From the IMG/VR virus record IMGVR_UViG_3300027792_000211, positions 1-57,984 of that record: a stretch of 57,984 bases of DNA; one strand, written 5' to 3'. Positions 15,507-18,084 of this stretch are shown piece by piece. The first letter of the stretch is position 1, and every line of letters begins with the position of its first letter. The position numbers were made by a program, and so were the translations under genes. Below the pieces are notes generated by a model, which ran no database searches, was not told where the DNA came from, and saw nothing but the letters and a program-made list of their open reading frames with translations. Origin of the DNA: a virus. Lineage: Duplodnaviria > Caudoviricetes.

Positions 15507-15703
15507 ATGAAAAACAATGGCAAAAACAAGAAAGAAATCACACAATTTTAGGAATAACATCATTATTAATTAGCTTAGGATTAGGGATTGGATGTTTATC
15601 TATGAACAAGGTTGTATTTATAGCTTTTTTAATTAGCTGTAGTATATCTTTAATCATAGCTGTTACGGAGGGAGAATCATGTTACCCAGAGAATATCAAG
15701 TAG
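15503..15703 (+). CDS. Small 2-TM membrane protein
   Basis: Two hydrophobic stretches. Confidence 0.6.
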   Translation: MNEKQWQKQERNHTILGITSLLISLGLGIGCLSMNKVVFIAFLISCSISLIIAVTEGESCYPENIK

Positions 15704-18084
15704 ATTGTTTAAACATAATAAAATCAAAACCCCATGGCAAATATTTAATTGTCATGGGGACAGGATTGGGAAAAAGTTTTACTTTTTCCCGAATCTCGTT
15801 TAAAAAACATATGTTAATTTTATCCCATCGGGAAGAATTAGTAAACCAACCCCGTAAATATTTTGATTGTACTTATGGGGTTGAAATGGGGAAATACACA
15901 AGCAATGGGGAAAAGGTAATTTCCGCGTGCGTTCCAAGTTTAATCAAGAGGTTAGAGAAATTTCCCAGGGATTACTTTGATGTAATAATAACAGATGAAT
16001 GTTTTCCAAGTGGAACAATAATTGATAATAAATCTATTGAAAACATTCACTGTGATGATATAATAACATCATACAATCATATGACAAATGAAATTGAATA
16101 TAAAAAAGTAATTAATATTTTTAAATCAATACCTAAATCAATTGTGATTGTAAAATTAAATAATAAGGAGATAATTTGTACTGGTAATCATCCCATTTAT
16201 ACTAAAAAAGGATATAAACCAGCTATAAATTTAAATGAAAATGATGAAGTGTTTTATATGTCAGCAAGAAATAATAAATCCAACTCGATCACAAAAAGAA
16301 ACATGGTACAGAACAAAACATCAACGAATGTATTGTTCAAAAGAATGTTCAAAAGAATATTGCAAAAAAATAAGTTCAGAAACAATGACAAAAACCAACA
16401 AAAAATATGCATCAGAAAGAATGAAAAAAAACAACCCAATGAAAAATTTAGAATCACGACAAAAAATGTCAAAAAGATTAAAAGAAATTGGGCATTGTCC
16501 AAAAATAAGATGTGGAAATGGTGCAGGTTTAACAGTTCCACAACAAAATTTATTAATAGCCTTAAAAAACTTAGAACCATATGCCGAATACCCATTAATA
16601 ACAAATATGAAAAGAAATTCAGGGTACCCACAACATTACAAAATAGACATAGCAATAATAAATTATATGATTGCAATAGAAATAGACGGGTCGTCTCATT
16701 CTGCAATGATAAGAAAAGAACAAGACAAGAAAAAAGAAGATTTTTTAAATGGATTAGGGTGGAAAGTGTTAAGATTCAAAAACAAACAAGTGATGGAACA
16801 TTTGGAGGATTGTGTAAAGACGGTTATGTCTACAATTTAGAAATAGAAGATAATAATAATTATTTTGTAAATAATGTTTTAGTACATAATTGCCACCACA
16901 GCCCCTGCGCGTCATATCAAAAGATTTACGAATACTTTCAATATGATTATCATTTTGGCCTAACAGCAACGCCCAACCGGTCCGACAACGTGAGATTAAA
17001 TAATATCTTTGATGAAATAATATTTAATAGAGATCTAAAATGGGGTATCCAAAATAAATATCTATCTGATATTTATGCCATGAGGTTTTACATGGATTAT
17101 GATTTATCCAGGGTAAAAACATCGAATGGAGATTATCAAATAAACCAATTAGAAAAGGCCGTGAATACCACGGAGAACGCCGCGGCAATCGCAGAAATAT
17201 ATAATAAACATGCGATGGGATCCACTCTTATTTTTGGGGTTTCGGTGGCCCACTGTGAAGAAATCGCAAAACAAATAAAAAATAGTGTAATAATTACAGC
17301 TAAAACAAAAAATAGATCCGAAATCATAGACAAATTCACTTCAGGGGAAATTAAATGCCTGGTCAATTGTCAAATTTTCACAGAGGGAACCGATATTCCA
17401 AGGGTTAACACATTAATCATAGCTAGACCCACAAAAAACATCAGTCTTTATACTCAAATGGTTGGCCGGGGACTTCGTCTATATCCCGGTAAAGAAAATT
17501 TACGTTTAATAGATTGTTGTGGGGTATCAGGACTAAATTTGTGTATGGCACCCTCATTATTGGGTTGTGAAATGTACGACCTCGGTAATAAAAAAACCCC
17601 TGGGCGTGATGAATTAATTGAGGGTGATTTGTTTGATCTTCCAGAAAAAATCAAAGAAGCTGAGAACACCCCCGATTATTGGAAAATCAATTATAAAATA
17701 GTTGATTTGTGGGCTAAAGGTCAAGGATACAACACCCACAATATAAATTTTAGAAAATTATCAAATGGTGATTTGACTCTTGAATTACCGAATATAGAGT
17801 TTACAATAAATGCCCCGGATGAATTAGGTCAAACCTGGTATCATGGTAAAAAATTACCTATGCAACAAGTTTTAGACTATTGTTATACATATCTTTTAAG
17901 TAAACAGCAAGAAGCAACGGCGTTATGGGATTTGTCTATTTGTAAAAAATGGGGTAAACATCCCATAACCCAAAAACAAAAAAATATTATTAAACGGTTT
18001 TTACCAAATTATGATTTAAATATGACTAGTCTTGAAGCTAGTCAGATAATCACTAAATTATTAGGAAGGAAAAAAAAGAAATGA
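15679..18084 (+). CDS. SF2 DExH helicase (Irc3/ResIII-like) containing an intein
   Basis: Q motif REYQ, Walker A GTGLGKS, DE-[intein]-CHH, TATP, EGTDIP, QMVGRGLR. Confidence 0.92.
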   Translation: MLPREYQVDCLNIIKSKPHGKYLIVMGTGLGKSFTFSRISFKKHMLILSHREELVNQPRKYFDCTYGVEMGKYTSNGEKVISACVPSLIKRLEKFPRDYFDVIITDECFPSGTIIDNKSIENIHCDDIITSYNHMTNEIEYKKVINIFKSIPKSIVIVKLNNKEIICTGNHPIYTKKGYKPAINLNENDEVFYMSARNNKSNSITKRNMVQNKTSTNVLFKRMFKRILQKNKFRNNDKNQQKICIRKNEKKQPNEKFRITTKNVKKIKRNWALSKNKMWKWCRFNSSTTKFINSLKKLRTICRIPINNKYEKKFRVPTTLQNRHSNNKLYDCNRNRRVVSFCNDKKRTRQEKRRFFKWIRVESVKIQKQTSDGTFGGLCKDGYVYNLEIEDNNNYFVNNVLVHNCHHSPCASYQKIYEYFQYDYHFGLTATPNRSDNVRLNNIFDEIIFNRDLKWGIQNKYLSDIYAMRFYMDYDLSRVKTSNGDYQINQLEKAVNTTENAAAIAEIYNKHAMGSTLIFGVSVAHCEEIAKQIKNSVIITAKTKNRSEIIDKFTSGEIKCLVNCQIFTEGTDIPRVNTLIIARPTKNISLYTQMVGRGLRLYPGKENLRLIDCCGVSGLNLCMAPSLLGCEMYDLGNKKTPGRDELIEGDLFDLPEKIKEAENTPDYWKINYKIVDLWAKGQGYNTHNINFRKLSNGDLTLELPNIEFTINAPDELGQTWYHGKKLPMQQVLDYCYTYLLSKQQEATALWDLSICKKWGKHPITQKQKNIIKRFLPNYDLNMTSLEASQIITKLLGRKKKK
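16000..16890 (+). mobile_element. Intein (297 aa) inserted in the helicase Walker B (DE/CHH)
   Basis: Block A CFPSGT, block B CTGNHPIY, block F VYNLEIEDNNNYF, block G VLVHN followed by Cys+1; excision restores DECHH. Confidence 0.93.
16235..16840 (+). CDS. Vsr/DUF559-like endonuclease with N-terminal Cys finger, overlapping the intein in the +1 frame
   Basis: CFIC...YCSKEC; NUMOD-like ERMKKNNPMKN; YKIDIA..IAIEIDGSSH...DKKKEDFLNGLGWKVLRF. Confidence 0.85.
   Translation: MKMMKCFICQQEIINPTRSQKETWYRTKHQRMYCSKECSKEYCKKISSETMTKTNKKYASERMKKNNPMKNLESRQKMSKRLKEIGHCPKIRCGNGAGLTVPQQNLLIALKNLEPYAEYPLITNMKRNSGYPQHYKIDIAIINYMIAIEIDGSSHSAMIRKEQDKKKEDFLNGLGWKVLRFKNKQVMEHLEDCVKTVMSTI

What the first reader, a model, noticed from the sequence alone, without database searches (positions are those of the whole stretch)
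16000..16890. Intein whose homing endonuclease is encoded out of frame: ~600 nt of dual coding
Seen in sequence: a canonical intein (CFPSGT ... TGNH ... VYNLEI ... VHN/C) splits the helicase DECHH motif. Its in-frame middle (~200 aa) is K/N/R-rich and has no recognisable domain. The +1 frame over the same DNA (16235..16840) encodes a coherent Cys finger, NUMOD-like segment and Vsr/DUF559 nuclease (IDIA..IEIDGSSH..D..L...GWKVLRF). This ORF begins where the N-terminal Hint segment ends and stops inside block F. Established: intein endonucleases are normally in-frame LAGLIDADG or HNH domains, and Vsr-like endonucleases occur as free-standing genes between split inteins. Inference: this is a third arrangement. 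The intein frame must stay stop-free as a disposable linker while the nuclease is made separately, by internal initiation (ATG AAA ATG ATG, no clear RBS) or by +1 frameshifting. It may be an intermediate on the way to split inteins, or a way to control nuclease dose.
Basis: partly seen in the sequence, partly recalled or inferred. Interest (0 to 1): 0.85.

Follow-up and report, generated by a model that had tools for sequence, protein, structure and literature searches.

The report
Helicase intein with overlapping endonuclease gene
A phage helicase gene carries a self-splicing protein insert (an intein) whose middle also encodes, one base out of step, a separate DNA-cutting "homing" enzyme; the double coding is real and kept by selection in a large phage family, but this general layout is already in print.

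Summary
The helicase ORF 15679..18084 holds a 297-codon class-1 intein (16000..16890) inserted at DE|C..HN|CHH. A 201-codon ORF in the +1 frame (16235..16840) encodes a zinc-ribbon plus DUF559/Vsr-like (EDxHD-type) nuclease. The helicase frame has no stop across it, while synonymous resampling expects 10-15 stops (0 of 20,000 resamplings had none).

It is not an assembly error. Contigs from three runs of another study are identical. The same +1 layout occurs in 75 of 80 nuclease-anchored viral loci, 71 of 80 intein-anchored viral loci, 7 of 9 bacterial-genome loci and 4 of 4 GenBank phage records.

The nuclease frame is under purifying selection (median dN/dS 0.15). The helicase-frame linker is not (1.32) and is predicted to be disordered. 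Separate translation by internal initiation is the likeliest route.

Relatives include split ("fractured") forms, mini-inteins that keep a +1-frame stump of the nuclease, and one in-frame form. The contiguous dual-coding form is therefore the stable majority state, not a rare intermediate.

Out-of-frame intein endonucleases are already described (Gorbalenya 1998; two preprints of 2025-26). This scan has also met this family before, on other DNA (80 earlier notes). I rate it a new variant of a known kind, of moderate interest.

The parts
15679..18084 (+). SF2 (DExH-type) phage DNA helicase precursor gene, 801 codons including the intein
   Evidence: ORF. Pfam ResIII and Helicase_C. PHROG phrog_16 'DNA helicase', 7.4e-70.
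15679..15999 (+). N-extein (107 codons), ending in motif II residues D-E
   Evidence: Translation; junction ITDE|CFPSGT.
16000..16890 (+). Class-1 intein, 297 codons, from Cys1 to the His-Asn end
   Evidence: In 44 aligned inteins C1, F2, T6, I13, V277, V295, H296 and N297 are invariant, and T61 and H64 are nearly invariant. The AlphaFold2 model matches Hint folds only: 16 PDB matches at E<=1e-3, all inteins or BIL domains.
16000..16275 (+). N-terminal Hint part (intein residues 1-92)
   Evidence: pLDDT 92-98 with beta strands; conserved in alignments A3 and A4.
16276..16740 (+). Helicase-frame linker (intein residues about 93-247), K/N/R-rich, no domain; it only has to stay free of stops
   Evidence: pLDDT 41-53 with no secondary structure. 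No Pfam or PHROG match. dN/dS is 1.32 in this frame across the nuclease overlap. 0 stops against 10-15 expected.
16741..16890 (+). C-terminal Hint part (intein residues 248-297, blocks F and G). Its first 100 nt also encode the nuclease C-terminus.
   Evidence: pLDDT 87-97. Conservation in the two frames converges here. This stretch is the 80.9% nucleotide match to the GC-rich Corynebacterium phage phi673.
16235..16840 (+). Homing endonuclease gene in the +1 frame (201 codons from the first ATG). The ATGs at 16241 and 16244 are the ones shared with the closest relative, L005.
   Evidence: ORF. Pfam DUF559 9.1e-13. AlphaFold2 mean pLDDT 91.1. Top folds are I-Bth0305I 3r3p, DUF559 3hrl and Vsr 1cw0. 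Profile against PDB: 3hrl 9.2e-13, 3r3p 0.0092. dN/dS 0.15. Start comparison.
16250..16348 (+). Four-Cys zinc-ribbon-like N-terminus of the nuclease (C6, C9, C34, C38)
   Evidence: C34 and C38 are invariant and C6 and C9 nearly invariant in 64 nucleases. Weak profile matches to eL24 and MYM-type zinc ribbons, E 0.012-0.08.
16532..16837 (+). Vsr-like / EDxHD-type catalytic domain of the nuclease (residues about 100-201)
   Evidence: D138, D151, H155 and D164 are invariant and E149 nearly invariant. Pfam match covers residues 133-199. Fold matches.
16037..16064 (+). Promoter-like site TTGAAA-16-TATAAT with TG extension, about 170 nt before the nuclease start. A candidate internal promoter, unproven.
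   Evidence: Best hit of the scan, 11 of 12 matches. The region has 24 promoter-like sites against 16.2 +/- 4.0 in shuffles. Both hexamers are conserved in L005, but the same bases also encode a conserved Hint motif.
16891..18084 (+). C-extein (397 codons), starting with the +1 Cys and H-H of motif II (DE-CHH after splicing)
   Evidence: Translation. [quoted passage not shown]

Best explanation
This is a mobile class-1 intein sitting in motif II (DE|CHH) of a phage SF2 helicase. Its homing endonuclease is not a domain of the intein polypeptide. It is a separate gene written in the +1 frame over the same DNA.

Ribosomes reading the helicase frame make an 801-aa precursor. In it, the two Hint halves (residues 1-92 and 248-297 of the intein) are joined by a disordered linker of about 155 residues whose only requirement is to contain no stop codon. 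Splicing would remove the 297 residues and restore a 504-aa helicase with an intact DECHH motif.

Separately, ribosomes start at the ATG cluster 16235-16246 and make a protein of about 200 aa: a zinc ribbon, a helical DNA-binding part and a Vsr-like (EDxHD-type) nuclease. By analogy with I-Bth0305I, this protein would cut intein-less helicase alleles near the insertion site during co-infection, and repair would copy the whole element in.

Shown here:
- the two open frames;
- their conservation in relatives;
- purifying selection on the nuclease frame only;
- the predicted folds.

Inferred:
- splicing;
- internal initiation;
- cleavage of the empty site.
For: Sequence and chance:
- Both frames are open.
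- 0 of 20,000 synonymous resamplings leave the helicase frame stop-free.

Not an error:
- Contigs of runs X2-X4, from a different study, match with 0 differing letters and 0 gaps. Together they cover 15650-17150, including both ends of the overlap.

Recurrence:
- 4 of 4 GenBank phage records hit by blastn have one long helicase CDS with a 215-263-codon nuclease ORF at +1.
- Of 80 nuclease-anchored IMG/VR loci, 76 have 0 stops in the host frame. 75 of those are contiguous as far as the contig reaches, at GC 26-69%.
- Of 80 loci anchored on the N-terminal Hint part instead, 71 carry the nuclease at +1. 54 of these 80 loci are not in the first set.
- 7 of 9 loci in bacterial genome contigs are nested at +1.

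Selection:
- The wobble position of the nuclease frame is the most variable: entropy 1.55 against 1.17 and 1.04.
- In 19 of 19 pairs, dN/dS is lower in the nuclease frame. The medians are 0.15 and 1.32.
- Outside the overlap the host frame has dN/dS of 0.21 and 0.11.

Structure:
- Nuclease model pLDDT 91.1, nearest folds 3r3p, 3hrl and 1cw0.
- Intein model: Hint halves have block-mean pLDDT of 87 or more and the linker 41-53; PDB matches are inteins.

Initiation:
- A stop in the nuclease frame lies directly before the ATG in the window.
- Shine-Dalgarno-like motifs precede candidate starts in 29 of 67 loci (strict motif, control 14%) or 41 of 67 (loose motif, control 30%).

Intactness of this copy:
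- It keeps every family-invariant residue of both the nuclease and the intein.
Against: - No direct evidence of splicing, of the nuclease protein, or of cleavage.
- The window's own start has no Shine-Dalgarno motif. The nearest AAGGA is 24 nt upstream, so its translation may be weak, or driven differently.
- The one RNA-library contig (X5, 16483-16691) does not prove transcription and says nothing about frame.
- dN/dS in overlapping frames is biased, because each frame depresses the other's synonymous rate. The numbers are comparative only.
- The two locus samples overlap (26 of 80 shared) and contain near-duplicates.
- The Foldseek E-values for the nuclease are weak (4.5e-3 at best).
- The tree is a quick search with SH-aLRT support only; the careful search did not finish.
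Confidence: 0.85

Rival explanations
1. The nuclease is made by programmed +1 ribosomal frameshifting from the helicase frame. This would give an N-extein/Hint-N/nuclease fusion rather than a protein started internally.
For: The window lacks a Shine-Dalgarno motif before its ATGs. One locus (L030, also fetched as L155) and one database protein (P0001) are read-through chimeras that pass from the helicase frame into the nuclease frame. So such fusions can be encoded.
Against: A stop in the nuclease frame lies directly before the ATG at 16235. A shift would therefore have to occur within about 15 nt. Several relatives show the same stop-then-ATG pattern. An ATG or GTG stands just before the first CxxC in all 67 loci examined, and Shine-Dalgarno-like motifs are enriched there. 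I looked for no slippery site systematically and saw none. The chimeras are 1 locus of 80 and 1 protein on a single contig, and they break the helicase.
Confidence: 0.06
2. Artefact or decay: either the nuclease is really in frame and two compensating assembly indels displaced it, or the +1 ORF is a dead relic inside a mini-intein with a long linker.
For: The record is a metagenome-derived virus contig. Homing endonuclease genes are expected to decay after fixation. Mini-intein relatives do exist (7 of 80).
Against: Identical contigs occur in three runs of a second study. The same +1 offset recurs in about 130 loci from three collections. dN/dS is 0.15 in the nuclease frame. All invariant residues are kept in the window copy. 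Only one in-frame relative was found among longer proteins (P0002).
Confidence: 0.02
3. The helicase-frame linker has a function of its own, such as binding nucleic acid or timing the splicing reaction. On this view both frames would be functional along their whole length.
For: The linker is never deleted in 71 of 80 intein-anchored loci. In this window it is very basic (K/N/R-rich). The last 100 nt or so are conserved in both frames.
Against: dN/dS is 1.32 in that frame. Pairwise identity is 0.10-0.40 there against 0.17-0.70 in the nuclease frame. The composition follows genome GC: K/N-rich here and E/S/G/R-rich in GC-rich phages. The model shows no structure. Mini-inteins lacking the linker persist.
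Confidence: 0.05

Closest known systems
Non-canonical actinobacteriophage inteins (Gosselin, Arsenault, Gogarten; bioRxiv 10.1101/2025.01.02.630785; passages read; supplements not seen)
   Same: The homing endonuclease is an ORF overlapping the intein outside the extein/Hint frame. The in-frame middle gives no recognisable structure. The authors argue that a free-standing endonuclease gene invaded an intein, and that annotation pipelines miss such genes.
   Different: Their cases are antisense LAGLIDADG, antisense VSR-like and same-strand frame-3 endonuclease VII-like. They lie in DNA polymerase, minor capsid, terminase and thymidylate synthase. Here the VSR-like gene is on the same strand at +1, in a helicase, and occurs far outside actinophages (Vibrio phages, low-GC phages, prophage-like contigs of several phyla).
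Cyanobacterial dnaX intein with an out-of-frame endonuclease (Phillips, DeSimone, Gogarten; bioRxiv 10.64898/2026.09.14.751524; abstract and sections 10 and 17 read). It credits Gorbalenya 1998, 'Non-canonical inteins', which is not held and was not read.
   Same: A same-strand overlapping ORF inside a contiguous intein. omega is low in the endonuclease frame and raised in the extein frame over the overlap. The in-frame linker is disordered. Full, mini and empty alleles co-occur.
   Different: That endonuclease is LAGLIDADG, in a +2 ORF, in a cellular gene of one phylum. Here it is an EDxHD/Vsr-like enzyme at +1 in phage helicases.
Fractured genes: split inteins flanking a free-standing Vsr-like or GIY-YIG endonuclease gene (Dassa et al. 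2009, PMC2677866; passages read)
   Same: The same nuclease family and mostly phage replication genes, including helicases. The endonuclease 3' end overlaps the start of the C-terminal intein part by 6-69 bp. Relatives L058 and L061/L062 have exactly this split layout.
   Different: In the window the helicase frame runs through without a stop or a restart, so the intein is contiguous and the overlap is 606 nt.
I-Bth0305I, prototype of the EDxHD homing endonucleases (Taylor et al. 2011, PMC3239194; passages read; PDB 3r3p)
   Same: It is the top structural match of the nuclease model. The acidic/His catalytic signature is shared. The architecture is an N-terminal DNA-binding part followed by a C-terminal Vsr-like domain.
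   Different: I-Bth0305I is encoded in a group I intron of a phage recA gene. Sequence similarity to it is marginal (E 0.0092). The window protein is closer to DUF559 proteins such as 3hrl (9.2e-13).
ShiLan-type out-of-frame HNH insertion in phage methylases (PMC11855218; passages read)
   Same: A homing endonuclease hidden in another frame of an insertion that the host frame reads through without stops.
   Different: That insertion has no splicing domains and stays in the host protein. Here the host-frame product is an intein that should excise itself.

Membership tests
Class-1 intein (Hint domain) | Nucleophilic Cys/Ser at position 1 and Cys/Ser/Thr at +1 of the C-extein | tested here: met
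   Cys1 at 16000-16002 and +1 Cys at 16891-16893. C1 is invariant in 44 of 44 aligned inteins.
Class-1 intein (Hint domain) | Block B Thr-x-x-His and terminal His-Asn | tested here: met
   TGNH is present. T61 and H64 are nearly invariant, and H296 and N297 invariant.
Class-1 intein (Hint domain) | Hint fold formed by the N- and C-terminal parts | tested here: met
   AlphaFold2 gives block-mean pLDDT of 92 or more (residues 1-92) and 87-97 (248-297). Foldseek finds 16 PDB matches at E<=1e-3, all inteins or BIL domains. The Pfam Hint models match only below their cut-offs.
Class-1 intein (Hint domain) | Protein splicing activity | not testable with these tools
   Inferred from intact catalytic residues and from purifying selection on the exteins (dN/dS 0.11-0.21).
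EDxHD / Vsr-like homing endonucleases (Pfam DUF559) | Sequence match to the family model above the curated cut-off | tested here: met
   PF04480: 48.5 bits against a cut-off of 20.6, E 9.1e-13.
EDxHD / Vsr-like homing endonucleases (Pfam DUF559) | Vsr-like nuclease fold | tested here: met
   The top three Foldseek matches are 3r3p, 3hrl and 1cw0 (probability 0.99-1.00, but E only 4.5e-3 to 1.1e-2). The profile matches 3hrl at 9.2e-13.
EDxHD / Vsr-like homing endonucleases (Pfam DUF559) | Conserved Glu, Asp, His, Asp catalytic signature | tested here: inconclusive
   E149 is nearly invariant and D151, H155 and D164 are invariant in 64 sequences. I did not map them residue by residue onto the catalytic residues of 3r3p or Vsr.
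EDxHD / Vsr-like homing endonucleases (Pfam DUF559) | Site-specific cleavage of the empty allele | not testable with these tools
   There is only indirect support. In several pairs the nuclease region is less diverged than the flanking helicase, for example L072/L073 pS 0.14 against 0.58.
Non-canonical inteins with an out-of-frame endonuclease gene | Endonuclease ORF overlaps the intein in another frame while the host frame stays open | tested here: met
Non-canonical inteins with an out-of-frame endonuclease gene | Purifying selection on the endonuclease frame and relaxed selection on the host frame over the overlap | tested here: met
   Median dN/dS 0.15 against 1.32, in 19 of 19 pairs. Codon-position entropies agree.
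Split-intein 'fractured gene' (Dassa et al. 2009) | Host gene broken into two ORFs, with a stop after the N-terminal intein part and a new start before the C-terminal part | tested here: not met
   The window's helicase frame has 0 stops from 15679 to 18081. Relatives L058 and L061/L062 do meet it.

The most novel reading that the evidence does not exclude
The overlap may be a lock, not merely something tolerated. The last 100 nt or so of the nuclease gene (the conserved GW-V-LRF-N...STI end of the DUF559 fold) are the same bases that encode the first beta strands and block F of the C-terminal Hint part. The first 41 nt overlap the end of the N-terminal Hint part.

This entanglement would tie nuclease and intein into one unit that cannot be cleanly separated. 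It would slow the loss of the endonuclease that the homing-cycle model predicts. It would also explain why the +1 offset is the same in about 130 loci spanning GC 26-69%.

In line with this, 5 of 7 mini-intein relatives still carry a +1-frame stump of the nuclease exactly where it overlaps the Hint part. Split and free-standing forms lie inside the contiguous clade in the quick tree. That would make this family a living series for the origin of split inteins.
Probability: 0.3. Interest if true: 0.65.

Novelty: new variant of a known kind. Interest (0 to 1): 0.45.

Why it matters
- It shows that out-of-frame encoding of a homing endonuclease is the normal, long-lived state of a large, widely spread phage intein family. 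It is not an oddity of a few actinophage or cyanobacterial inteins.
- Annotation misses this state. The 4 GenBank phage records examined annotate only the helicase.
- One family holds contiguous dual-coding, in-frame, split, mini and free-standing forms. This makes the models of Dassa et al. 2009 and Gosselin et al. 2025 directly testable. Those models concern how endonuclease genes enter inteins and how split inteins arise.
- It is a natural example of two proteins sharing about 600 nt, with both frames constrained at the two ends of the overlap.
- Practically, the family offers compact Hint domains that tolerate a linker of about 150 residues, and a set of EDxHD nucleases aimed at a conserved helicase motif.

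Tried and rejected
- **Sequencing or assembly error.** Rejected.
- **Dead relic ORF.** Rejected.
- **+1 frameshifting as the main route.** Judged unlikely but not excluded.
- **A function for the linker frame.** No support.
- **NUMOD domain.** No Pfam match at E<=1.
- **Internal promoter.** The best promoter-like site (16037-16064) is conserved in L005, but it also encodes a conserved Hint motif, so it is only a lead.
- **RNA evidence.** One 215-nt contig from a metatranscriptome run (X5) lies on 16483-16691. It shows neither transcription nor frame. Runs X5 and X6 held only 0.12 and 0.11 of the sampled words. I draw no conclusion about habitat from them.
- **Other copies in the same record.** None. 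There is 1 match, the locus itself.
- **Longer fused forms.** 2 proteins among 361 candidates: one true in-frame form and one frameshift chimera. That search is weak evidence for rarity, as its own output says.
- **Literature searches.** Searches found no paper describing a same-strand +1 Vsr-like gene in a helicase intein. This covers only the held library.
- **Tree.** The careful tree search did not finish within the time limit, so I used the quick tree.
Full report
**1. What is in the window**

The + strand ORF 15679..18084 (801 aa) is an SF2 helicase. Pfam gives ResIII 6.5e-16 and Helicase_C 1.1e-15, and PHROG phrog_16 'DNA helicase' gives 7.4e-70.

Its motif II is interrupted after D-E by a 297-codon insert, 16000..16890. 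The insert begins with Cys, carries TGNH and VYNLEI, and ends VHN followed by CHH.

A second ORF, 16235..16840 (201 codons), lies in the +1 frame on the same strand. It matches Pfam DUF559 at 9.1e-13, above the curated cut-off. The helicase-frame reading of the same bases matches nothing in Pfam (best E 0.5) or PHROGs.

The record is an IMG/VR virus contig of 57,984 bases, estimated 64% complete, with one copy of the nuclease.

**2. More than chance, and not an error**

- Across the nuclease ORF the helicase frame has 0 stops and the third frame has 34.
- Resampling synonymous codons of the nuclease gives a mean of 15.5 stops (window codon usage) or 10.0 (own usage) in the helicase frame. None of 20,000 resamplings reached zero.
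- Contigs of three DNA runs from a different study (X2-X4) lie on 15650-17150 with no differing letter and no gap. Together they cover both ends of the overlap.
- These are contigs, not reads, so rare variants cannot be excluded.

**3. The layout recurs**

A sensitive blastn against phage records found nucleotide similarity only inside the insert. The hits were helicase genes of Vibrio phages and of Corynebacterium phage phi673. In all 4 records examined:
- the helicase is annotated as one long CDS;
- an unannotated 215-263-codon nuclease ORF lies at +1 inside it.

*Nuclease-anchored sample.* A search of IMG/VR with five aligned nucleases returned 80 loci.
- 76 have no stop in the host frame across the nuclease.
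- 75 of these are contiguous as far as the contig reaches.
- L030 changes frame upstream.
- 4 loci have many stops in both other frames (L020, L058, L061, L062).
- GC content ranges from 26 to 69%.
- Most insert at DE|C..HN|CHH, and a few at other junctions.

*Intein-anchored sample.* That sample is biased towards loci with a nuclease, so I repeated the census anchored on the N-terminal Hint part. Of its 80 loci, 54 are not in the first set.
- 71 carry the nuclease at +1.
- 7 are mini-inteins of 130-170 aa.
- 1 is the L030 frameshift locus again.
- 1 is cut by the contig end.
- None has another kind of endonuclease.

*Bacterial genomes.* In bacterial genome contigs, 7 of 9 loci are nested at +1 and 2 are free-standing. 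Record titles name Oscillospiraceae, Ruminococcus, Lachnospiraceae, Akkermansia, Spirochaetaceae, Thermodesulfobacteriota, Alphaproteobacteria and Enemella.

**4. Which frame is selected**

- Over 184 well-aligned codon columns of 67 distinct sequences, the third position of the nuclease frame is the most variable: entropy 1.55 against 1.17 and 1.04. That position is the first position of the helicase frame.
- In 19 pairs with 70-98.5% nucleotide identity, Nei-Gojobori dN/dS has a median of 0.15 in the nuclease frame and 1.32 in the helicase frame over the same bases. The nuclease value is lower in 19 of 19 pairs.
- Outside the overlap the helicase frame has medians of 0.21 (upstream) and 0.11 (downstream).
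- Such ratios are biased in overlapping genes, so I use them only comparatively.
- Block by block, amino-acid identity is higher in the nuclease frame everywhere except the last few codons. There the helicase frame (block F) catches up: 0.54 against 0.61.
- In several pairs the nuclease region is much less diverged than the flanking helicase, for example L072/L073 pS 0.14 against 0.58. This fits recent transfer.

**5. Structures**

- *Nuclease.* With 64 aligned sequences the nuclease folds confidently: mean pLDDT 91.1. The best PDB folds are the I-Bth0305I catalytic domain (3r3p), a DUF559 protein (3hrl) and Vsr (1cw0). Probabilities are high but E-values weak. The sequence profile matches 3hrl at 9.2e-13 and 3r3p at 0.0092.
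- *Conserved nuclease residues.* Four Cys, D138, D151, H155 and D164 are invariant or nearly so, and the window copy has them all.
- *Intein.* The helicase-frame intein, folded with 44 aligned sequences, has two confident Hint parts (residues 1-92 and 248-297). Between them lies a stretch of about 155 residues with pLDDT 41-53 and no secondary structure. Its PDB matches are inteins and BIL domains.

**6. How the nuclease is made**

- In the window, a stop in the nuclease frame directly precedes the first ATG (16232-16237).
- The ATGs at 16241 and 16244 are the ones shared with the closest relative, L005.
- There is no Shine-Dalgarno motif nearby, although the helicase's own start has one.
- Across 67 loci an ATG or GTG stands just before the first CxxC.
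- Shine-Dalgarno-like motifs are enriched there: strict motif 29 of 67 against 14% in controls, loose motif 41 of 67 against 30%.
- A promoter-like site (TTGAAA-16-TATAAT with TG) at 16037-16064 is the best in the region and is conserved in L005. However, it overlaps a conserved Hint motif.

I conclude that internal initiation is the likeliest route, and that expression in this copy is probably low.

**7. Relatives with other layouts**

- *Split form.* L058 and L061/L062 are split, 'fractured' helicases. An N-terminal fragment ends after the N-terminal Hint part. The nuclease gene follows. A C-terminal fragment starts inside the 3' end of the nuclease gene.
- *Free-standing form.* L020 has the nuclease gene directly upstream of an intein-less helicase that is 52% identical to the window's C-extein.
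- *In-frame form.* P0002 is a UvrD-like helicase whose intein holds the nuclease in frame.
- *Mini-inteins.* 5 of 7 mini-inteins keep, in the +1 frame, a stump of the nuclease C-terminus exactly where it overlaps the C-terminal Hint part. This points to internal deletion of a dual-coding ancestor.
- *Tree.* In a quick maximum-likelihood tree, the split pair and L020 lie inside a well-supported 50-row clade of contiguous forms. Contiguous forms also lie on both sides of the midpoint root. The sampling started from intein-borne nucleases, so distant free-standing relatives are under-represented.

**8. Comparison with what is known**

- Out-of-frame or antisense endonuclease genes in inteins are in print. 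They are described for actinophage inteins (passages) and for the cyanobacterial dnaX intein (abstract and two sections).
- Both papers cite Gorbalenya 1998, which I could not read.
- Vsr-like endonucleases between split intein halves were described by Dassa et al. 2009 (passages). The family prototype I-Bth0305I was described by Taylor et al. 2011 (passages).
- In what I read, the VSR-like cases inside contiguous inteins are antisense and are not in helicases.
- My four literature searches found no description of this same-strand +1 helicase family.
- This scan has noted the same layout before on other DNA: 80 notes in at least 64 genomes, and the follow-ups reached the same reading. I treat those as agreement, not as evidence.

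**9. Verdict**

Interest is moderate, for three reasons:
- the breadth and stability of the family;
- the two-frame constraint at the ends of the overlap;
- the presence in one family of contiguous, in-frame, split, mini and free-standing forms.

Noticed in passing
L020:2959-5090: In a low-GC viral contig the same nuclease is a free-standing gene directly upstream of an intein-less helicase that is 52% identical to the window's C-extein. That helicase is broken by one extra base exactly between the D-E codons and G-H-H, which is the intein insertion point. It could be an assembly error, a repair scar or a real split. Seen on one contig only.
   Followed up: partly
L030:2389-4622 (same contig as L155); protein P0001: Two frameshift chimeras. 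In L030 the N-extein and N-terminal Hint part run in frame into the nuclease, and the first CxxC is missing. P0001 passes from the linker frame into the nuclease frame midway. Both would break the helicase unless they work as split forms.
   Followed up: partly
protein P0002 (1472 aa, seen on 4 contigs): A UvrD-like helicase with an intein at DE|C..HN|CQD that carries a shortened version of this nuclease in frame. It is the only canonical in-frame form found.
   Followed up: partly
L099, L115, L121, L145, L169 (mini-inteins); L161, L170: Mini-inteins of 130-170 aa at the same DE|C site. Five keep a +1-frame remnant of the nuclease C-terminus over the C-terminal Hint part. Two have a different lead-in to block F and no remnant.
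   Followed up: yes
L001-L004 (GenBank: Vibrio phages 159E43-1b, CP-T1 and 1.088.O; Corynebacterium phage phi673): In all four cultured-phage records the helicase is annotated as a single CDS. The 215-263-codon nuclease ORF inside it is not annotated.
   Followed up: yes
L005, L008, L016, L032, L070/L071, L092, L093 host ORFs: Several host helicase ORFs appear to carry a second intein at another site. L005 and L032 show a junction just after the P-loop GK. L008 and L016 show a LAGLIDADG-like LGFLLGDG motif. Further ..THN|T or ..THN|C ends are also seen.
   Followed up: no
window 16757-16850: This 94-nt stretch is 80.9% identical to the GC-rich Corynebacterium phage phi673, although the window has 32% GC. 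It is the part where the nuclease C-terminus and the C-terminal Hint strands share the same bases.
   Followed up: yes
window 15766-15792: A terminator-like hairpin (12 pairs, followed by a T-rich tail) lies on the + strand inside the N-extein coding region of the helicase.
   Followed up: no
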